Shown here one piece after another: positions 1 to 8,940 of a stretch of DNA of 64,000 nucleotides. The notes under the pieces are model-generated. The model saw only the letters and a program-made list of their open reading frames with translations, was not told where the DNA came from and made no database searches. This stretch comes from Escherichia coli. Lineage in GTDB: Bacteria; Pseudomonadota; Gammaproteobacteria; Enterobacterales; Enterobacteriaceae. The first letter of the stretch is position 1; the number at the start of each line of letters is the position of its first letter. The stretch is from the NCBI RefSeq assembly GCF_029227855.1, contig NZ_CP074356.1. One strand, written 5' to 3'. The translations under genes were made by a program, and so were the position numbers.

Positions 1-1
1 C

Positions 2-2974
2 GCTGCGGACCGGATCATCCGCTGGTCCGATAACGACCAGACGTGGAGCCGTTTCACCTACGATGAACAGGGCCGGTGCGTGAATGTCACCGGGGCGGAG
101 GGCTATTACAACGCCACGCTGGACTATGGTGACGGCTGCACCACCGTGACGGACGGCAAGGGCATTCACCGTTATTACTATGATCCTGACGGCAATATTC
201 TGCGGGAAGCAGCGCCGGACGGCAGCACCACCACGTATGAATGGGATGAATTCCATCACCTGCTGGCCCGTCACTCCCCTGCCGGGCGGGTGGAGAAATT
301 TGAATACAACGCCGCACACGGTCAGTTAAGCCGTTACACGGCGGCAGACGGCGCGGAGTGGCAGTACCGCTATGATGAGCGCGGCCTGCTCAGCAACATC
401 ACCGACCCTGCCGGGCAGACGTGGACACAGCAGTGTGATGAACGCGGCCTGCCGGTAAGTCTGGTGTCGCCACAGGGCGAAGAGACCCGGCTGGCATACA
501 CCGCTCAGGGGCTGCTGTCGGGAATATTCCGCCAGGATGAACGGCGTCTGGGCATAGAGTACGACCACCACAACCGGCCGGAAACACTCACCGACGTGAT
601 GGGCCGTGAACACCACACCGAATACAGCGGTCACGACCTGCCGGTGAAGATGCGCGGCCCCGGCGGTCAGTCAGTGCGGTTGCAGTGGCAGCAGCACCAT
701 AAACTGAGTGGCCTTGAGCGCACTGGCACCGGCGCGGAAGGGTTCAGCTATGACCGCCACGGCAACCTGCTGGCCTGGACGGACGGCAATGGTGTTGTCT
801 GGACAATGGAGTACGGCCCGTTCGATTTGCCGGTGGCGCGAACGGACGGTGAAGGCCACCGCTGGCAGTACCGCTATGATAAAGACACGCTGCAACTGAC
901 AGAAGTCATTAACCCGCAGGGTGAGTCATATCTTTATGTTCTGGATAACTGCGGCCGGGTGACGGAAGAGCATGACTGGGGCGGCGTGGTCTGGCGTTAC
1001 CGCTATGACGCCGATGGCCTGTGTACCGCCAGGGTCAACGGCCTGGAGGAAACCATCCTCTACAGCCGGGACGACGCAGGCCGCCTGGCAGAAGTCATCA
1101 CGCCGGAAGGCAAAACGCAGTATGCGTATGACAAATCCGGCAGGCTGACGGGTATCTTCAGCCCGGACGGCACATCACAGCGCACCGGCTATGACGAACG
1201 CGGGCGGGTGAATGTCACCACTCAGGGCCGACGGGCCATTGAATACCACTACCCCGATGAACACACCGTCATCCGCTGTATCCTGCCACCGGAAGATGAA
1301 CGCGACAGACACCCCGGTGAATCCCTGCTGAAAACCACGTACCGCTACAACGCAGCCGGAGAACTGGCAGAGGTCATCCTGCCGGAGGATGAGACGCTGA
1401 CGTTCAGCCGTGATGAGGCAGGACGTGAAGTGCTCCGGCACAGTAACCGGGGTTTTGCCTGTGAGCAGGGCTGGAATGCAGCCGGTCAGCTTACCAGCCA
1501 GCGCGCCGGACTTTTCCCGGCAGAAGCCACATGGGGCGGGCTGCTCCCCTCACTGGTACGGGAGTACCGTTACGACAGCGCGGGCAATGTGTCGGCTGTC
1601 ACCAGCCGGGAAGATTACGGACGGGAAACTCGCCGGGAGTACCGGCTGGACCGGAACGGCCAGGTCACGGCGGTGACAGCCTCAGGCACCGGGCTGGGCT
1701 ATGGCGAAGGCGATGAGTCCTATGGCTATGACAGTTGTGGCTACCTGAAGGCGCAGTCTGCGGGCAGGCACCGGATAAGTGAAGAGACTGAGCGGTATGC
1801 CGGAGGCCACCGGCTGAAACAGGCCGGAAACACGCAGTATGACTATGACGCCGCAGGCCGGATGGTCAGCCGCACCAGACACCGTAACGGCTATCGCCCG
1901 GAAACAGAGCGGTTCCGGTGGGACAGCCGGGACCAGCTGACCGGGTATTGCAGCGCACAGGGTGAACAGTGGGAATACCGCCACGACGCCAGCGGCAGAC
2001 GGACGGAAAAACGCTGCGACCGGAAGAAAATCCGCTTCACGTACCTGTGGGACGGCGACAGTATTGCGGAAATCCGGGAATACCGCGATGATAAACTGTA
2101 CAGCGTAAGGCACCTGGTGTTTAACGGCTTTGAGCTGATAAGCCAGCAGTTTAGCCGGGTACGGCAGCCGCACCCGTCCGTGGCCCCGCAGTGGGTGACG
2201 CGGACGAATCATGCGGTGAGCGATCTGACGGGCCGTCCGCTGATGCTCTTTAACAGTGAAGGTAAAACCGTCTGGCGACCGGGACAGACCAGCCTGTGGG
2301 GGCTGGCACTCAGCCTGCCCGCGGACACCGGCTACCCGGACCCGCGCGGGGAACTGGACGCGGAAGCCGACCCCGGCCTGCTGTATGCAGGACAGTGGCA
2401 GGATGCGGAATCCGGGCTGTGCTATAACCGGTTCCGGTATTACGAGCCGGAAACAGGGATGTACCTGGTGAGTGATCCGCTGGGGTTGCTGGGGGGTGAG
2501 CAGACTTACCGGTATGTGCCGAATCCGTGTGGGTATGTTGATCCTTTGGGATTAGCAACATGTCCCATAATCAGACAACGGGTGCTGGCTAACCTTGAAG
2601 CCAGTCGGGCAGCAAGGGCTGCATCTAATTTTGGTAAGAAAAATATCTATGATTTTATCAAGGCAACTCAATCTGCTATCCCTGGCACCTCTATCCCAAA
2701 ATCTTTTGAGATTATAACTGCTAATGGTACTTTCTGGGTACACCCAAATGCTACAAAACATATGGCTGAATATTTGACTCGGAACGGTCTCTCACATTCA
2801 ACTTCTGTAGAGAGCCAAATAATGTTAACAAGTTTTCACGAAGCTGTAAGTTTGGCTAGTGCTCAAGGTATAAAGTATGAAGAAATGATGAATGTTGGCG
2901 GCTGGGAACTAGTATTTAGTCAAGCTAAATCTGACTCGGCTTTATCAGTTATTAAACATGCTCTTTATAAATGA
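2..2974 (+). CDS. Rhs-family polymorphic toxin, 5'-truncated by the window edge; YD-repeat core ending in a DPLGL motif, then a ~140-aa C-terminal toxin domain of unassigned family
   Basis: The reading frame is open from position 2 to the stop at 2974. Repeated YDxxGR(L/V) motifs run throughout, and the core ends with RYYEPETGMYLVSDPLGL...YVDPLGL followed by a lower-GC extension (ATCPIIRQ...KHALYK). Confidence 0.85.
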   Translation, partial: AADRIIRWSDNDQTWSRFTYDEQGRCVNVTGAEGYYNATLDYGDGCTTVTDGKGIHRYYYDPDGNILREAAPDGSTTTYEWDEFHHLLARHSPAGRVEKFEYNAAHGQLSRYTAADGAEWQYRYDERGLLSNITDPAGQTWTQQCDERGLPVSLVSPQGEETRLAYTAQGLLSGIFRQDERRLGIEYDHHNRPETLTDVMGREHHTEYSGHDLPVKMRGPGGQSVRLQWQQHHKLSGLERTGTGAEGFSYDRHGNLLAWTDGNGVVWTMEYGPFDLPVARTDGEGHRWQYRYDKDTLQLTEVINPQGESYLYVLDNCGRVTEEHDWGGVVWRYRYDADGLCTARVNGLEETILYSRDDAGRLAEVITPEGKTQYAYDKSGRLTGIFSPDGTSQRTGYDERGRVNVTTQGRRAIEYHYPDEHTVIRCILPPEDERDRHPGESLLKTTYRYNAAGELAEVILPEDETLTFSRDEAGREVLRHSNRGFACEQGWNAAGQLTSQRAGLFPAEATWGGLLPSLVREYRYDSAGNVSAVTSREDYGRETRREYRLDRNGQVTAVTASGTGLGYGEGDESYGYDSCGYLKAQSAGRHRISEETERYAGGHRLKQAGNTQYDYDAAGRMVSRTRHRNGYRPETERFRWDSRDQLTGYCSAQGEQWEYRHDASGRRTEKRCDRKKIRFTYLWDGDSIAEIREYRDDKLYSVRHLVFNGFELISQQFSRVRQPHPSVAPQWVTRTNHAVSDLTGRPLMLFNSEGKTVWRPGQTSLWGLALSLPADTGYPDPRGELDAEADPGLLYAGQWQDAESGLCYNRFRYYEPETGMYLVSDPLGLLGGEQTYRYVPNPCGYVDPLGLATCPIIRQRVLANLEASRAARAASNFGKKNIYDFIKATQSAIPGTSIPKSFEIITANGTFWVHPNATKHMAEYLTRNGLSHSTSVESQIMLTSFHEAVSLASAQGIKYEEMMNVGGWELVFSQAKSDSALSVIKHALYK

Positions 2975-3504
2975 CGATTATGCTTACATTAGAAAATGAA
3001 ACAAACTACAAAGATGTTGTTGTTAATATAGATGAATTTGTACCTTTTGATATAACTTTTGGAAAGGGGAGCGAACAGTGTTTGTACTGGAGAGGCGGCA
3101 ATGGTAAAAGTTCTTTGGTTGAAGTTGGGTTAAATATGTACAGCGGAGAAGTAAGTAACATCACACTAGCAAATATCGATTCAGGTGAAATTAACATTAC
3201 AGATGAGATGTTAGCCAACAACCTTCCTGAAATACAAGGGTCTGTTATATTTCAGACAAGCGAGTGGCTTAATAAAGACATTTCCGAATACTCAAACAGA
3301 TTTATTGATGATTTTGATTGCAATATCAAGTTAATAATTGGTAGTAATTACATTAAATTATTATTTAAAAAAGCAACAAATCCCATTTGTTATATCATTA
3401 ATAGGAATATAAGATTTGGTTTTTCTTTGAGTAGGGAACTTTCGACATTGGAAATATTAGACCTCAATCAAGAAAAATTAGATATTCTAAAGTTATTTAA
3501 ATAG
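2971..3504 (+). CDS. Putative cognate immunity protein for the upstream Rhs toxin domain
   Basis: A 177-aa ORF whose ATG overlaps the toxin stop (ATGA at 2971-2974). It is AT-rich and sits immediately downstream of the toxin, the usual toxin-immunity arrangement. Confidence 0.55.
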   Translation: MTIMLTLENETNYKDVVVNIDEFVPFDITFGKGSEQCLYWRGGNGKSSLVEVGLNMYSGEVSNITLANIDSGEINITDEMLANNLPEIQGSVIFQTSEWLNKDISEYSNRFIDDFDCNIKLIIGSNYIKLLFKKATNPICYIINRNIRFGFSLSRELSTLEILDLNQEKLDILKLFK

Positions 3505-3995
3505 TTTTAGTGTTTGAAACTTACCGAGAGATGATAGCTATGAATGAATACAAAAACATCCATCTTGGAGGAAACAATGGAATGTTAATCCATTAAAAAA
3601 CATACTTCAATATCTTTAGTGAAGAAAGAGTTGTATGAAAGAAATATATCTTATGTGAGCGACATGATGCATGCTAATTATATTATTGGCCGGAAATTTT
3701 ATGATGATAGCAAAAAGGAGGGGTTATTTCTGTAAGAATGGATATACCCGCAGGGTTTGAACCAGACATTTATTTGTTGAAGTCTAAGATCCAAATGGAA
3801 GCATTTATATCCCTCAGATATTATGCGTTGACGGGTTGATAAAGATACTTTTAGAGGGTTAATAAATGGAGAACGTATAATAAATCTCTTAAACAAACTA
3901 TAACCTGTACTAATGAAAAAAATGGGAATAGATAAGTTAATAGCCTATTCTAAAAATGGTAAAGTGGTTTTACTTCCAAAATAATGGAGTTTAGT

Positions 3996-4427
3996 ATGAA
4001 AATCGAAGCTAATTCCCTTACTCATCCCTATGACTACAACGCCTCACTGAACAATTATTTACATTATTTTGAGAATTTCTCTCGTAATGACTGGAATAAA
4101 GATTCATGTGGAGGATATTTTACTTTTAGAGATGATGACAGAGAGTGTGTTTTGTTTTTTGTGAATTATGGTGATAATTTTTCATTGCGCTATGATTGTA
4201 CACAAAGTTCTGATGGAATAGTGTCATGCTGGTATAGTAACCATGAAGATGATAAAATGAATATCATCGTCGATGCTGATACAGAACAATTTATCCCTTT
4301 AGGTTCTTGCTTACCTCCTGATATTACTTTATCAGTAATAAAAGATTTTTTCAAAAATCCTTTAGAGAAATCAAAAAAAGTAAAATGGATGAATGCAGAT
4401 GACATTGACTGGTCATCTGTGTATTAA
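3996..4427 (+). CDS. Hypothetical protein, possible orphan immunity protein
   Basis: An ORF of ~143 aa (from MKIEANS; an upstream ATG at 3984 is also possible) with AT-rich composition, lying in the island downstream of the Rhs toxin. No recognisable catalytic motif. Confidence 0.4.
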   Translation: MKIEANSLTHPYDYNASLNNYLHYFENFSRNDWNKDSCGGYFTFRDDDRECVLFFVNYGDNFSLRYDCTQSSDGIVSCWYSNHEDDKMNIIVDADTEQFIPLGSCLPPDITLSVIKDFFKNPLEKSKKVKWMNADDIDWSSVY

Positions 4428-5289
4428 AGTTGGATTGGATAATTATCTGTTTCAAAAATCATTAAATTTAGAACCTATCTGTTCAACAGAGCTGCCTTGA
4501 ACAGCAGGTTCTTTTATGATGTCCAGGAGCGAATATGCCTGTGATGTCTGGCACTCAGCATCTGACTGACCTGGACTACTGATCCTACTCACACAGGGAG
4601 CTAGACCTGGAAGCAACCTACTGTAAGCAGTGCAGTAGCAGCCCACCTCACATCAGTCCTTGCAAGGTGTGGGCCTTTGTGATCTTGCTCTGTATTGCTG
4701 AGATCCTCAGGAAGGACTCGAAATTTAATCAGGAAGGCCGTTGCTAAAAATCAAAAAATAAATTCAAGAGCAATTTCTAAAACTTTTGAATCTACTGTAT
4801 CGGATGAGGTTTTCACTCCTTTCCAAAAGGTGAGTTTTCAAGCATTCAAGTTTCTGTTATGACCAAAACTTCACCATTTAACACTAATCCGAGTATTATG
4901 TTACCATGAAGAAAAAAGATATTAGATTTGCAATATCCATTAACTCCAACTCAAGTAAGATAGAATTAATGGAAAAATTAAAAACATAATCCCAGGGCTT
5001 ATTGAAATAACTCCCAGTGCATTAAGAGAAGAAAAAACATGGTAGTTATTGAAGATAATGATCTTTATGACTCTATAAAAGCAGAGGGAGTTGATGGATG
5101 GATGTATTATAAATTCATATTATCCATATTCCCATTAAAGGGAGTAGACACAACATTAGAATATCAACGGAAATTATCTTTTCTTTTCTTAAAGAAATTA
5201 AAAGATGCGGGTCTGTTAGGTGAACTTATATGCGAGGATGATTTTCATGACTGATGACCTCTACATATATCCTCAGTTCGTGGCTGGTA

Positions 5290-5631
5290 TTACATGATCT
5301 GACAGGGAAAGATCGTAGCGAAATCAAAAAAGACGTGGATTTCCCGGAAGCCGGTGAAGACACGGCGCTCTGCGACAAGGAGACTAAACCGCCGAGGATA
5401 GCCCAGGGCAGCAGCAACGTTTTTATCAACAATCAGCCTGCCGCACGCCAGGGAGACAAACTGGAGTGCAGTGCGGCGATCGTGGAAGGTTCGCCGGACG
5501 TCTTTATTGGGGGTGAGCAGGTCACCTATCTGGATATCCAGCCGGAGTTCCCGCCGTGGCAGAGAATGATCCTGGGGGGAATAACGATAGCCAGCTATCT
5601 TCTGCCGCCAGCGCAGGGAAAGATCACGTAA
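5290..5631 (+). pseudogene. PAAR-domain fragment, probably the C-terminal part of the N-terminal PAAR region of a T6SS-type Rhs or PAAR protein
   Basis: A GC-rich segment inside the 5254..5631 ORF encodes IAQGSSNVFINNQPAARQGDKLECSAAIVEGSPDVFIGG, matching the PAAR motif pattern. The composition shifts abruptly near 5290, and no credible N-terminus or Rhs core follows. Confidence 0.5.
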
Positions 5632-5700
5632 CGCTGCTTTTTTGTACTAAATAATTCGCACTAAATGTTCAATAATTGAGATATTCCTTATTACCTAAAT
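5614..5700 (+). repeat. Direct repeat copy 1 (~90 bp; cagggaaagatca...tttgtactaaataattcgca...gatattcc.tattacctaaa)
   Basis: About 80% identical by eye to 7645..7738. It lies at the 3' junction of the PAAR fragment. Confidence 0.6.
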
Positions 5701-5750
5701 ACAGTTCCACCAAGATTACCTAAACCCAAATGAGGTAAAAGATAGTGGGT

Positions 5751-6112
5751 ATGAATAAAAATGAAATCCATTTCCCTATAGGATATGGTTGGTTGAATGA
5801 AAAAAAATTATTGGCACCAGTGAATTTAGCCAATTAGAACCATGGTTTTATCTAGATGAGAACAGGTGTTTTTTTGCGAATAAAAAATGGCCAAATGTCA
5901 TAGGTGAACAATTATTCGCTTTTGCTAAACGTCAAGATAATGATGAATTGGCTTGTTTCAAAATTAATGAATCTGGAGTCTGTGAGGGTGTTTATTTAAT
6001 TAATGGGTGGACTCCTAACGGGTTTGATATTATACAATTTTACCCTGATTTTTGGGAATGGGTACATTTGGTTATACAAGATGTCTCGGAGTGGATTGAT
6101 AATAAAGGATAA
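5751..6112 (+). pseudogene. Frameshifted immunity-like gene; any family resemblance (e.g. SMI1/KNR4-like) is tentative
   Basis: ATG at 5751 gives MNKNEIHFPIGYGWLNEKKLLAPVNLAN then a stop. The +1 frame continues KKIIGTSEFSQLEPWFYLDENRCFF...EWIDNKG to 6112. The frame break coincides with an A8 homopolymer near 5803-5810. Confidence 0.35.
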
Positions 6113-6141
6113 TTTGAAACAAAAGTAAAAAACCGCCTTCA

Positions 6142-6840
6142 TTGAAGGTAACGTGGAGTGGTGGGCGGAGCAGCCTGCCCGCAGACACAGACTACCCGGA
6201 CCCGCGCGGGGAGCGGGACGCGGAAGCCGACCCCGGCCTGCTGTATGCAGGACAGTGGCAGGATGCGGAATCCGGACTGTGCTATAACCGGTTCCGGTAT
6301 TACGAGCCGGAAACCGGGATGTACCTGGTGAGTGATCCCCTGGGGTTGCTGGGGGGTGAGCAGACTTACCGGTATGTGCCTAATCCTAGTGGGTATGTTG
6401 ATCCTCTGGGATTAGCAACGTGTCCTATACTCAGACAGTGGGCGCTGACTAACCTTGAAGCCAGTCGGGCAGCAAGGGCTGCATCTAATTTTGGTAAGCC
6501 TCTGGTCCAGCGAAATAAAACGATTGGCGATAAAGTAAGGGATATGATTGCCAAAGAGAGGGGAACCACTCTAATTGAACAAAATTATAGAGTGACAGGA
6601 GGATTAAAGCGTATTGACGTTGTTGATGGAGTAACGGGTATAGAATCTAAAGTCGATCGAACAGGGTTAACAACCCGAGTACGGCAAGAGGTAGCGCGGG
6701 ATATTAAGATTTTGAGAAGTGAGCAACTTGATCAAATTGAATGGGTGTTTACAAGAAGTTCAACTACAGGGAAGATTGGGCCAACTAAACCACTTGAAGA
6801 TCTTTTAAATAAACATGGTATACCGATTATTTATCGATAA
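6142..6840 (+). CDS. Orphan Rhs C-terminal module: core-end repeat (DPLGL) plus an alternative toxin domain, possibly a PD-(D/E)xK-like nuclease
   Basis: Positions ~6176-6500 are near-identical to 2310-2630 (the end of the first Rhs core plus 26 codons). The sequences then diverge into a different C-terminal domain containing RIDVVDGVTGIESKVDRTG. The reported ATG at 6142 is probably not the native start. Confidence 0.7.
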   Translation: MKVTWSGGRSSLPADTDYPDPRGERDAEADPGLLYAGQWQDAESGLCYNRFRYYEPETGMYLVSDPLGLLGGEQTYRYVPNPSGYVDPLGLATCPILRQWALTNLEASRAARAASNFGKPLVQRNKTIGDKVRDMIAKERGTTLIEQNYRVTGGLKRIDVVDGVTGIESKVDRTGLTTRVRQEVARDIKILRSEQLDQIEWVFTRSSTTGKIGPTKPLEDLLNKHGIPIIYR

Positions 6841-6851
6841 GGAGTGATAGT

Positions 6852-7409
6852 GTGAAACTCAAACCGATTGGTGACTTTTTAAACAAAAATGGGTTTATAA
6901 AAAATGGTAACAATGATTTTTATAAAGTTCATGATAAGTTTGTAAATTGTATAAATTTTCAAAAAAAGAGTACAGGTGATATTTTTTTTATAAACACAGG
7001 TGTTCATCCTGTGTTCGAAAATTTTTGCAATGAACCACCGAAAAAAGAAATAGATTGTTACATCCGTAACCGTGTGTGTGATGGACTAAGTATATCTTTG
7101 CTGCATTCTTTTGAAGGTAGTGAGTTTGTTATCAGTGAGATAAAAAACAAAGCGTTTTGTTTTTTTGAATACTTTGATTCATTGAATAAAATATTCGATG
7201 CTATTCGTGTTGTAGATATTGAAGAGAGAAATATTTGCGATGAGCTAAGTGGTGTAAGCAGCGTAAGATTAGCTTTGATGTGTATGAACTACCAGTATGA
7301 GAAAAAAAAATTTAGCCTTGTTTCTGATTTTGCGAACTATGGTCTTGCTATATCTAGAGGCCCGGTACCGAAAAAAGCATTTAAGGATATGATAAAAATA
7401 ACAGAGTGA
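6852..7409 (+). CDS. Putative immunity protein for the orphan Rhs toxin module
   Basis: A 185-aa ORF with a GTG start 12 bp after the toxin stop, preceded by AGGAG at 6841-6845. AT-rich. Confidence 0.5.
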   Translation: MKLKPIGDFLNKNGFIKNGNNDFYKVHDKFVNCINFQKKSTGDIFFINTGVHPVFENFCNEPPKKEIDCYIRNRVCDGLSISLLHSFEGSEFVISEIKNKAFCFFEYFDSLNKIFDAIRVVDIEERNICDELSGVSSVRLALMCMNYQYEKKKFSLVSDFANYGLAISRGPVPKKAFKDMIKITE

Positions 7410-7419
7410 TACCTAATCC

Positions 7420-7650
7420 GGTGTAATACTTGCTGCCTGTGTACCGCGAAGATTAACGGCCGGGAGGAAACTATTCTCTACAACCGGGACGCCACAGGCC
7501 GCCTGGCAGAAGTCATCACGCCGGAAGGCAAAACGCAGTATGCGTATGACAAATCCGGCAGGCTGACGGGTATCTTCAGCCCGGACGACACATCACAGCG
7601 CACCGGCTATGAAGAACGCGGGCGGGTGAATGTCACCACTCAGGGCAGGG
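7420..7650 (+). pseudogene. Internal Rhs core fragment
   Basis: About 215 bp nearly identical to 1021-1230 of the first Rhs core (encoding ...EETILY..RLAEVITPEGKTQYAYDKSGRLTGIFSPD...). Homology is lost at the cagggaaagatca junction. Confidence 0.6.
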
Positions 7651-7738
7651 AAAGATCATCCAAAGTACACTTTTTGTACTAAATAATTCGCATTTTATGT
7701 TTAAAAATGGAGATATTCCTCATTACCTAAAGCTGTTT
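7645..7738 (+). repeat. Direct repeat copy 2 (~90 bp), immediately upstream of the ISAs1-family transposase
   Basis: Matches 5614..5700 in sequence. It may be the left end of the H-repeat element or a recombination scar. Confidence 0.6.
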
Positions 7739-7739
7739 T

Positions 7740-8940
7740 TTATTGCTTATACATGATCAAATACTCCTTACATAATTAAGGAGAACAAAATGGAACTTAA
7801 AAAATTGATGGAACATATTTCTATTATCCCCGATTACAGACAAGCCTGGAAAGTGGAACATAAATTATCGGATATTCTGCTGTTGACTATTTGTGCCGTT
7901 ATTTCGGGTGCAGAAGGCTGGGAAGATATAGAGGATTTTGGGGAAACACATCTCGATTTTTTGAAGCAATATGGTGATTTTGATAATGGTATTCCTGTTC
8001 ACGATACCATCGCCAGAGTTATATCCTGTATCAGTCCTTCAAAATTTCACGAGTGTTTTATTAACTGGATGCGAGATTGCCATACTTCAGATGATAAAGA
8101 CGTCATCGCAATTGATGGAAAAACACTCCGGCATTCTTATGACAAGAGTCGCCGCAAGGGAGCGATTCATGTCATTAGTGCGTTCTCAACAATGCACAGT
8201 CTGGTCATCGGACAGATCAGGACGGATGAGAAATCCAATGAAATTACAGCTATCCCTGAACTTCTTAACATGCTGGATATTAAAGGAAAAATCATCACAA
8301 CTGATGCGATGGGTTGCCAGAAAGATATTGCAGAGAAGATACAAAAACAGGGCGGTGATTATTTATTCGCTGTAAAAGGAAACCAGGGGCGGCTAAATAA
8401 AGCCTTCGAGGAAAAATTTCCGCTGAAAGAATTAAATAATCCAGAGCATGACAGTTACGCCATTAGTGAAAAGAGTCACGGCAGAGAAGAAATCCGTCTT
8501 CATATTGTTTGCGATGTCCCTGATGAACTTATTGATTTCACGTTTGAATGGAAAGGACTGAAGAAATTATGCGTGGCAGTCTCTTTTCGGTCAATAATAG
8601 CAGAACAAAAGAAAGAGCCAGAAATGACGGTCAGATATTATATCAGTTCTGCTGATTTAACCGCAGAGAAGTTCGCCACAGCAATCCGAAACCACTGGCG
8701 CGTGGAGAATAAGCTGCACTGGCGTCTGGACGTGGTAATGAATGAAGACGACTGCAAAATAAGAAGAGGAAACGCCGCAGAATTATTTTCAGGGATACGG
8801 CACATCGCTATTAATATTTTAACGAATGATAAGGTATTCAAGGCAGGGTTAAGACGTAAGATGCGAAAAGCAGCCATGGACAGAAACTATCTCGCGTCAG
8901 TCCTTGCGGGGAGCGGGCTTTCGTAATCTTGCCCTGCGTT
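7740..8940 (+). mobile_element. ISAs1-family (H-repeat) insertion element; boundaries approximate
   Basis: Contains one intact transposase ORF. The terminal inverted repeats could not be delimited by eye. Confidence 0.4.
7790..8926 (+). CDS. ISAs1-family transposase (H-repeat-associated protein; YhhI/YdcC/YbfD-like)
   Basis: A 378-aa ORF ([32 protein letters not shown]...[31 protein letters not shown]) recognised as the H-repeat protein family found inside Rhs elements. Confidence 0.85.

What the first reader, a model, noticed from the sequence alone, without database searches (positions are those of the whole stretch)
5290..5631. Stranded PAAR-domain fragment in the orphan island
A GC-rich ~340-bp segment encodes two PAAR-type motifs (IAQGSSNVFINNQPAARQGDK and SPDVFIGG) but has no plausible start and no Rhs core after it. 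It appears to be a relic of the N-terminus of a PAAR-Rhs type VI effector. It implies the main Rhs gene, whose 5' end lies outside the window, is PAAR-tipped and T6SS-delivered.
Basis: partly seen in the sequence, partly recalled or inferred. Interest (0 to 1): 0.5.

Follow-up and report, generated by a model that had tools for sequence, protein, structure and literature searches.

The report
Dead PAAR stump of displaced Rhs gene
This is a 300-base dead remnant of a type VI secretion Rhs toxin gene, cut off by an insertion sequence; it is ordinary debris in a known E. coli Rhs locus and is already annotated as a pseudogene.

Summary
Window 5314-5613 is GC-rich (57% against about 30% in the flanks) and encodes a significant PAAR match (Pfam PF05488, E 3e-11).

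The window is identical to E. coli JNEC-KY178, at the known rhs locus between cusS and nfrB. The fragment aligns without gaps to codons 240-339 of the resident main rhs gene, 6.45 kb upstream, at 94.3% identity. That gene is a class I prePAAR Rhs effector preceded by vgrG and a DcrB/DUF1795 chaperone gene. The genome also carries a complete T6SS cluster.

The fragment is the 5' stump of a long, N-terminally truncated orphan rhs. The same 5' junction occurs in 139 of 5426 complete E. coli genomes. In some it runs on into a 3.8-4.1 kb rhs with toxin tip and immunity gene. In 110 genomes, including this one, an ISAs1 (H-rpt) left end cuts it after codon 339. An 11-nt ISAs1 end also sits at the 5' junction.

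The fragment lacks prePAAR, the transmembrane segment, the first PAAR motif and all Rhs repeats. It is most likely non-functional. RefSeq already annotates it as a partial PAAR pseudogene. Low interest.

The parts
5314..5613 (+). Rhs-derived PAAR fragment (pseudogene). Equivalent to codons 240-339 of a class I prePAAR Rhs effector. Carries the 2nd and 3rd PAAR motifs plus the following hydrophobic segment PPWQRMILGGITIASYLLPPA.
   Evidence: Ungapped 300-bp match, 94.3% identical, to main rhs at L001 13663-13962. Pfam PAAR_motif E 3.1e-11. RefSeq annotates it as 'PAAR domain-containing protein, incomplete, missing N-terminus and C-terminus'.
5303..5313 (+). 11-nt tip of an ISAs1-family (H-rpt) left inverted repeat, CAGGGAAAGAT, directly abutting the 5' end of the fragment.
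   Evidence: Exact match to the first 11 nt of the IS copies at 5614 and 7646. There are 9 matches with up to 1 mismatch in the window, against 0.85 expected. The same junction is present in L003 and L006.
5614..5699 (+). 86-bp left-end remnant of an ISAs1-family element that truncates the fragment after codon 339. It supplies the codons QGKIT and the stop.
   Evidence: 96.5% identical to nt 1-86 of the IS in L004 and 81% to the resident ISEc1 copy at 7646; nothing further matches.
5254..5631 (+). Mechanical 125-aa ORF made of an AT-rich flank, the IS tip, the PAAR fragment and the IS remnant. Its ATG overlaps the stop of ORF 5039..5254.
   Evidence: Not annotated as a gene in RefSeq.
4693..5302 (+). 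AT-rich 610-bp spacer with a small ORF (5039..5254). It lies between an IS right end and the IS left-end tip and always travels with the 5' junction.
   Evidence: Window 3903-5613 is colinear with L003 and L006 at 96.6-97.1%. 137 genomes hold at least 80% of 4400-5313.
4647..4692 (+). 46-bp right-end remnant of a divergent ISAs1-family element.
   Evidence: 78% identical to nt 1246-1291 of the ISEc1 copy, E 1.5e-6. The terminal repeat is intact in L003 and L006.
1..2974 (+). 3' two-thirds of the resident main rhs gene (codons 620-1609), ending in toxin tip CT1. The gene starts 1856 bp upstream of the window.
2971..3504 (+). Presumed immunity gene of CT1 (WP_001370340.1).
   Evidence: Position directly after the main rhs. 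The same pair occurs as an orphan module in L007 and as the main module in L010.
3984..4427 (+). Orphan immunity-like gene. In L003 and L006 its homologue directly follows the main rhs.
6171..6840 (+). Short orphan rhs: the last roughly 300 bp of the core plus toxin tip CT2 (ORF 6142..6840).
   Evidence: 94% identical to 2311-2638. TIGR03696 Rhs_assc_core, E 1e-18.
6852..7409 (+). DUF4304 protein, presumed immunity gene for CT2.
   Evidence: RefSeq product name and its position.
7435..7646 (+). A second stranded rhs core fragment, also cut by an ISAs1 left end.
   Evidence: 94% identical to 1017-1228; abuts the IS at 7646.
7646..8937 (+). Complete 1292-bp ISAs1-family element (ISEc1 / H-rpt) with an intact transposase gene at 7790..8926.
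   Evidence: NF033564 transpos_ISAs1, E 5e-125. Boundaries taken from alignments to L002, L003 and L005. Terminal repeats shown.

Best explanation
The segment is a non-functional relic: the 5' stump of a long 'orphan' rhs gene.

Step 1 (inferred). An incoming rhs segment that began at codon 239/240, inside the split PAAR domain, recombined with the resident vgrG-eag-rhs gene at the cusS-nfrB locus. It carried its toxin tip, an immunity gene and some ISAs1 debris. The result was a functional main gene followed by a displaced, N-terminally truncated rhs copy. This fits the C-terminal displacement / circular-intermediate model of Jackson et al. 2009.

Step 2 (shown by comparison). That long orphan survives nearly intact in some genomes and has decayed in different ways in others.

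Step 3 (junction shown; order of events inferred). In this lineage an ISAs1/H-rpt element landed after codon 339. Everything downstream was then lost or replaced by a foreign module: an 86-bp IS remnant, a small immunity-like gene, a short orphan rhs tip and a DUF4304 gene. Only 300 bp remain.

The stump lacks the prePAAR motif, the transmembrane segment bound by the Eag chaperone, the first PAAR motif, the Rhs cage and any toxin. It cannot cap VgrG or deliver anything. It persists by clonal descent.
For: - The window is identical to NZ_AP045174.1.
- The locus reads cusS | vgrG - DcrB-family chaperone - rhs (1609 aa) - immunity ... ISAs1 - nfrB. Jackson et al. 2009 list this as rhs locus 4.
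- The fragment aligns without gaps to main-gene codons 240-339 at 94.3% identity, with 17 nt and 3 aa differences. Homology stops exactly at 5313/5314 and 5613/5614.
- The same 5' junction, with the 610-bp AT-rich flank and the IS tip, occurs in 139 of 5426 genomes.
- After that junction, 90-9280 has a 4142-bp rhs with an AHH tip plus immunity gene. WP2-W18-CRE-03 has a 3783-bp rhs. O121:H19 has a 654-bp piece fused to a 135-bp core end.
- Among the sampled copies, the fragment is closest to the 90-9280 orphan (8 nt differences).
- The 3' junction with the ISAs1 left end occurs in 110 genomes. The following 471 bp occurs only in those same 110, at 99% identity or more.
- The main gene has prePAAR_I at 54-100 and a first PAAR motif at 132-153. 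Both lie upstream of the breakpoint.
- In the solved relative Tre23 (7PQ5) the two PAAR halves are contiguous, and the fragment matches only the second.
- prePAAR is required for PAAR function and VgrG binding (Ahmad et al. 2020).
- Promoter-like sites are no more frequent than in shuffles.
- NCBI's pipeline calls it a partial pseudogene.
Against: - The reading frame is still open, with no internal stop or frameshift in the 300 bp.
- An in-frame ATG at 5254 overlaps the stop of the upstream ORF, so some translation cannot be excluded.
- No expression data were available.
- The recombination history is reconstructed from present-day arrangements in a handful of genomes, not from a phylogeny.
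- The 11-nt IS tip at the 5' junction has the rhs DNA on the 'inside' of the IS end. Simple insertion does not explain that orientation, so part of the history is unresolved.
Confidence: 0.88

Rival explanations
1. The 125-aa ORF 5254..5631 is a live small gene. It would make a half-PAAR protein, translated by coupling to the upstream ORF. It could act as a decoy or modulator of VgrG loading, or as a membrane peptide through its hydrophobic tail.
For: The frame is open and the ATG overlaps the upstream stop (TGATG). The sequence is 99-100% conserved in 110 genomes.
Against: - The conservation is within what looks like one clonal lineage, so it carries no information.
- The ORF's start and end come from unrelated DNA: an AT-rich flank at one end and an IS remnant at the other.
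- The only PAAR match covers model positions 53-94 of 94, at 35 bits against a cut-off of 124.
- prePAAR and the first PAAR motif are absent.
- Two amino-acid changes (G to S, N to T) were seen in none of the seven intact copies compared.
- There is no promoter signal above background.
Confidence: 0.04
2. The fragment descends from a second complete vgrG-eag-rhs cassette that once lay in tandem downstream of an ISAs1 copy. A deletion running from nt 12 of that IS to rhs codon 239 removed vgrG, eag and the rhs 5' end. Under this reading no circular rhs segment was inserted.
For: An IS left-end tip of 11-12 nt sits exactly at the 5' junction, with only 1 nt of microhomology. That is what an illegitimate deletion starting inside an IS would leave.
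Against: The 610 bp outside the IS tip matches neither the DNA normally found upstream of the terminal ISEc1 nor nfrB-proximal DNA in L002 or L005. No sampled genome shows tandem vgrG-eag-rhs cassettes at this locus. This rival changes only the origin of the long orphan, not what the fragment is now.
Confidence: 0.1
3. The fragment is a recent duplication of the resident main gene's own PAAR region.
For: It lies in direct orientation in the same locus and its translation is nearly the same.
Against: It has 17 nt differences in 300 from the resident gene, more than from main genes of other strains (14) or from the 90-9280 orphan (8). The junction is shared with distant serotypes such as O121:H19 and O114:H49.
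Confidence: 0.02

Closest known systems
Dissociated ('orphan') rhs tips produced by C-terminal displacement (Jackson et al. 2009, BMC Genomics 10:584; rhs locus 4 between nfrB and cusS)
   Same: Same locus. A GC-rich piece homologous to rhs sits among AT-rich tips and immunity genes downstream of a full-length rhs. Sister genomes show the piece attached to a full core, tip and immunity gene.
   Different: Typical orphans keep only the 3' end of the core. This one reached back to codon 240, into the PAAR domain. In this lineage it has lost its core and tip, so what remains is the 5' end of an orphan rather than a tip.
Class I prePAAR Rhs effectors with Eag (DUF1795) chaperones (Ahmad et al. 2020, eLife 9:e62816). 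Closest solved relative: Photorhabdus Tre23, PDB 7PQ5.
   Same: The parent gene family. The resident main gene has prePAAR (AARLGDEIQH), one transmembrane region, PAAR, YD repeats, an adjacent DcrB-family gene and vgrG. Tre23 matches at E 2e-33.
   Different: The fragment keeps only the second half of PAAR. The E. coli proteins also carry an insertion of about 100 aa, partly proline-rich, between the two PAAR halves. Tre23 has no such insertion.
H-rpt / ISAs1-family insertion sequences of E. coli Rhs elements (ISEc1)
   Same: The terminal sequence CAGGGAAAGATCA... bounds the fragment on both sides. A complete copy lies 2 kb downstream.
   Different: The two copies next to the fragment are debris of 11 nt and 86 nt, with no transposase gene.

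Membership tests
PAAR domain (Pfam PF05488 / NCBIfam NF033420 T6SS_PAAR_dom) | Significant match to the PAAR profile | tested here: met
   PF05488 i-Evalue 3.1e-11, residues 42-91. NF033420 E 1e-8.
PAAR domain (Pfam PF05488 / NCBIfam NF033420 T6SS_PAAR_dom) | Complete domain, with all three PAAR motifs that build the cone (Shneider et al. 2013; from my own knowledge) | tested here: not met
   Only model positions 53-94 of 94 are matched, at 35 bits against a cut-off of 124. The first motif (main gene residues 132-153, NINGKPAARAA) lies upstream of the breakpoint. Only the second Tre23 PAAR half is matched.
Class I prePAAR Rhs effector (Ahmad et al. 2020) | prePAAR motif AARxxDxxxH followed by one transmembrane region | tested here: not met
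   Absent from the fragment. Present in the resident main gene (AARLGDEIQH; PF25799 at 54-100, E 3.7e-5).
Class I prePAAR Rhs effector (Ahmad et al. 2020) | Rhs / YD-repeat cage and C-terminal toxin downstream of PAAR | tested here: not met
   The fragment ends at an IS left end at 5614. Sister copies in L003 and L006 do continue into YD repeats.
Class I prePAAR Rhs effector (Ahmad et al. 2020) | Adjacent eag (DUF1795 / DcrB-family) chaperone gene and vgrG | tested here: not met
   None lies next to the fragment. Both lie upstream of the resident main gene.
Orphan rhs module (Jackson et al. 2009) | GC-rich rhs-homologous piece downstream of a full-length rhs in the same orientation | tested here: met
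Orphan rhs module (Jackson et al. 2009) | Attached AT-rich C-terminal tip followed by an immunity gene | tested here: not met
   Lost in this lineage. Present behind the same 5' junction in 90-9280 and WP2-W18-CRE-03.
ISAs1-family insertion sequence (flanking debris) | Terminal inverted repeat sequence | tested here: met
   CAGGGAAAGAT is exact at 5303, 5614 and 7646. The right end at 8926-8936 matches with 1 mismatch.
ISAs1-family insertion sequence (flanking debris) | Transposase gene between two ends | tested here: not met
   The remnants are 11 nt and 86 nt. Only the copy at 7646-8937 is complete.

The most novel reading that the evidence does not exclude
Both breakpoints of the fragment, and that of a second stranded core piece at 7646, are ISAs1/H-rpt left ends in one orientation. 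At the 5' junction the rhs DNA sits on the 'inside' of an 11-nt IS tip. The evidence does not exclude that H-rpt elements, for which I know of no demonstrated transposition (from my own knowledge), are the agents that cut rhs genes, or that they generate the circular intermediates postulated for C-terminal displacement. In that case they would be more than passive passengers of Rhs elements.
Probability: 0.08. Interest if true: 0.45.

Novelty: already known. Interest (0 to 1): 0.1.

Why it matters
It matters little. It confirms that the partly visible rhs gene is a VgrG/Eag-dependent PAAR-Rhs T6SS effector in a strain with a complete T6SS. It also gives a clear decay series for a displaced rhs copy: 4.1 kb, then 3.8 kb, then 0.65 kb, then 0.3 kb. 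This shows that displacement can reach back into the PAAR domain and that ISAs1/H-rpt ends mark several breakpoints. In practice the fragment and its two junctions serve as a lineage marker, present in 110 of 5426 complete E. coli genomes. It is also a reminder that a PAAR hit in an orphan array should not be counted as an extra T6SS spike tip.

Tried and rejected
- **Stand-alone PAAR gene.** Rejected. The profile coverage is partial, the ORF ends are chimeric, and NCBI's pipeline calls it a pseudogene.
- **Recent copy of the resident gene.** Rejected on 17 nt differences in 300.
- **Tandem-cassette origin.** I looked for the 610-bp flank (4693-5302) upstream of the terminal ISEc1 or next to nfrB in L002 and L005. 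There was no match.
- **Larger IS remnant upstream.** I tried to extend the remnant at 4450-4692. Only 46 bp are recognisable by blastn, and blastx against the transposase gave nothing.
- **Extension of the 86-bp remnant beyond 5699.** Nothing found.
- **Promoter and terminator scan of 4600-6200.** Counts equal the shuffles.
- **The fourth exact CAGGGAAAGAT at 63420.** It lies in what reads as coding sequence (not checked by ORF list or annotation). I took it as a chance match.
- **Literature on H-rpt with Rhs and ISAs1.** Nothing found that describes this junction.
- **Lineage identity.** Strain names among the 110 genomes hint at ST405. I did not test this and do not claim it.
- **Not run, judged unnecessary:** structure prediction, Rfam, and the large protein databases.

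Full report
**1. What is in the sequence**

GC content is 0.57-0.575 at 5301-5600, between flanks of 0.29-0.36. Pfam PAAR_motif (PF05488) matches ORF residues 42-91 with i-Evalue 3.1e-11. NCBIfam T6SS_PAAR_dom matches with E 1e-8, but only model positions 53-94 of 94 and 35 bits against a curated cut-off of 124.

**2. Where the window comes from**

Window 1-9200 is 100% identical to E. coli JNEC-KY178 (NZ_AP045174.1), locus L001 positions 14802-24001. The annotated order there is:

- cusS
- vgrG
- a 'DcrB-related' gene
- rhs (4830 bp, 1609 aa)
- immunity-like genes
- 'PAAR domain-containing protein; incomplete; missing N-terminus and C-terminus' (window 5314-5613)
- a partial rhs
- a DUF4304 gene
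- a partial gene
- an ISAs1 transposase gene
- nfrB

Jackson et al. 2009 list the site between nfrB and cusS as rhs locus 4 of E. coli. The main rhs gene starts 1856 bp upstream of the window.

**3.

I checked this directly.

- The VgrG gene scores E 4e-188 against TIGR03361.
- The small gene after it is Pfam DcrB PF08786, E 1.7e-27. From my own knowledge this is the family formerly called DUF1795, the Eag chaperones of Ahmad et al. 2020.
- The first 400 residues of the main Rhs contain three features: prePAAR_I (PF25799) at 54-100, with the visible motif AARLGDEIQH followed by a hydrophobic stretch; a weak PAAR motif at 132-153 (NINGKPAARAA); and a strong PAAR motif at 266-310.
- The closest solved protein is the T6SS Rhs effector Tre23 (7PQ5, E 2e-33). 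Its two PAAR halves are contiguous. The E. coli protein therefore carries an insertion of about 100 residues between them.
- The same genome has a fully annotated T6SS cluster about 390 kb away, at 3.999-4.031 Mb. It includes tssB, C, E, F, G, J, K, H, A, M, DotU, hcp and vgrG.

The main gene is therefore a class I prePAAR Rhs effector in a T6SS-positive strain. Delivery itself is inferred, not shown.

**4. Exact anatomy of the fragment**

BLASTN and an in-register comparison show an ungapped 300-bp match of window 5314-5613 to main-gene codons 240-339, at 94.3% identity (17 nt and 3 aa differences). Similarity stops abruptly on both sides.

- On the 3' side, the next base (5614) starts CAGGGAAAGATCACG.... 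This is the left terminal repeat of an ISAs1-family (H-rpt) element.
- 86 bp of that element remain (5614-5699). They are 96.5% identical to the IS in L004 and 81% to the complete ISEc1 copy at window 7646-8937.
- On the 5' side, the 11 nt immediately before the fragment (5303-5313) are again CAGGGAAAGAT, the tip of the same kind of IS end.
- This 11-mer occurs exactly four times in the window. Three of them are these IS ends. With one mismatch allowed there are 9 matches against 0.85 expected.
- 610 bp further upstream, 4647-4692 is a 46-bp right-end remnant of a divergent ISAs1 element.

The ORF's start codon lies in the AT-rich spacer. Its last five codons and its stop come from the IS remnant. 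The ORF is a chimera of four unrelated pieces.

**5. What it used to be**

The 5' junction (spacer plus IS tip plus PAAR) occurs in 139 of 5426 complete E. coli genomes. The 3' junction (PAAR plus IS end) occurs in 110.

In genomes that have only the 5' junction, the same reading frame continues:

- In O114:H49 strain 90-9280, it runs into a 4142-bp rhs ending in an AHH toxin tip, followed by an immunity-like gene and three further orphans.
- In WP2-W18-CRE-03, it runs into a 3783-bp rhs.
- In O121:H19 FWSEC0006, it is a 654-bp piece fused to the last 135 bp of a core.

Translation from the equivalent ATG in 90-9280 is open through PAAR into YD repeats. Window 3903-5613 is colinear with these genomes at 96.6-97.1%. 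Among the copies compared, the fragment is closest to the 90-9280 orphan (8 nt differences) and furthest from its own resident gene (17).

So the fragment is the 5' stump of a long, N-terminally truncated orphan rhs. It is not a recent copy of the resident gene.

The 471 bp after the IS remnant (5700-6170) are found only in the same 110 genomes, at 99% identity or more. The IS-bounded truncation and the downstream module therefore arose once and are inherited clonally.

**6. Likely history (inferred)**

The arrangement in 90-9280 reads:

- main rhs and immunity gene
- IS right-end remnant
- 607 bp
- IS left tip
- rhs from codon 239 onward, with tip and immunity gene

This is what a single crossover would produce between the resident rhs and a circular molecule carrying that cargo: an rhs segment starting at codon 239, a tip, an immunity gene, IS debris and a spacer. 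That is the circular-intermediate version of C-terminal displacement proposed by Jackson et al. 2009.

A tandem-cassette-plus-deletion origin is not excluded. I found no supporting arrangement.

One point remains unexplained. The rhs DNA lies on the inner side of an 11-nt IS tip, with only 1 nt of microhomology.

Later, in this lineage, an ISAs1 element inserted after codon 339. The orphan's core and tip were then lost or replaced.

**7. Function**

Ahmad et al. 2020 report that prePAAR is needed for PAAR function and VgrG binding, and that Eag chaperones bind the N-terminal transmembrane region. The fragment lacks prePAAR, that region, the first PAAR motif, the Rhs cage and any toxin.

It carries two amino-acid changes (G to S and N to T) seen in none of seven intact copies. 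Promoter-like sites around it are no more frequent than in shuffled sequence.

I conclude that it is an inert pseudogene fragment, with confidence about 0.88. The residual doubt comes from the still-open frame and the ATG that overlaps the stop of the upstream ORF.

**8. Novelty**

None of kind. The locus, the orphan arrays and the H-rpt association are classical. RefSeq already labels this exact segment as a partial PAAR pseudogene in this and sister genomes.

The mildly instructive points are two. A displaced rhs copy can extend back into the PAAR domain. Its decay can also be followed through four states in different lineages.

Noticed in passing
window 5753-6112: A 120-aa immunity-like ORF (WP_001038643.1 in sister genomes) is frameshifted here by loss of one A in a homopolymer: A8 here against A9 in strain AR_0067. 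Most sister genomes listed have the 472-bp intact form; strain ST2747 matches this window's 471-bp form at 100%.
   Followed up: yes
window 7435-7646: A second stranded rhs core piece (212 bp, 94% identical to 1017-1228). It also ends exactly at an ISAs1 left end, that of the complete ISEc1 at 7646-8937. The 5 nt before the two IS ends are similar: CAGCG at 5609 and CAGGG at 7641.
   Followed up: partly
window 3984-4427: Orphan immunity-like gene. In 90-9280 and WP2-W18-CRE-03 its homologue (WP_000687356.1) directly follows the main rhs. Here the CT1 plus immunity module (about 2550-3900) lies in between. This indicates a separate replacement of the main gene's toxin tip. The same CT1 immunity gene (WP_001370340.1) belongs to an orphan module in strain 503440.
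   Followed up: partly
L001 12946-14145 (main rhs N-terminus, upstream of the window): The PAAR domain of this E. coli Rhs is split by an insertion of about 100 residues, containing PPPPPPGAIPEIPQGEP. The closest solved relative, Tre23 (7PQ5), has no such insertion. The orphan's breakpoint (codon 239/240) falls at the end of this insertion.
   Followed up: partly
window 6142-7409: A short orphan rhs tip (232-aa ORF; toxin type not determined) with a DUF4304 gene after it. Together with 5614-6170, this module was found only in the same 110 E. coli genomes, so it was probably imported from outside the species.
   Followed up: partly
window 63420-63432: An exact 13-nt match to the ISAs1 left end (CAGGGAAAGATCA) in what reads as coding sequence, with no other IS sequence nearby. 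Probably a chance match.
   Followed up: partly
window 5226 (from hits H171-H173): In a few sister genomes the match to 4400-5313 breaks at about 5226 and resumes elsewhere in the record. This suggests an additional insertion in the spacer in those strains.
   Followed up: no
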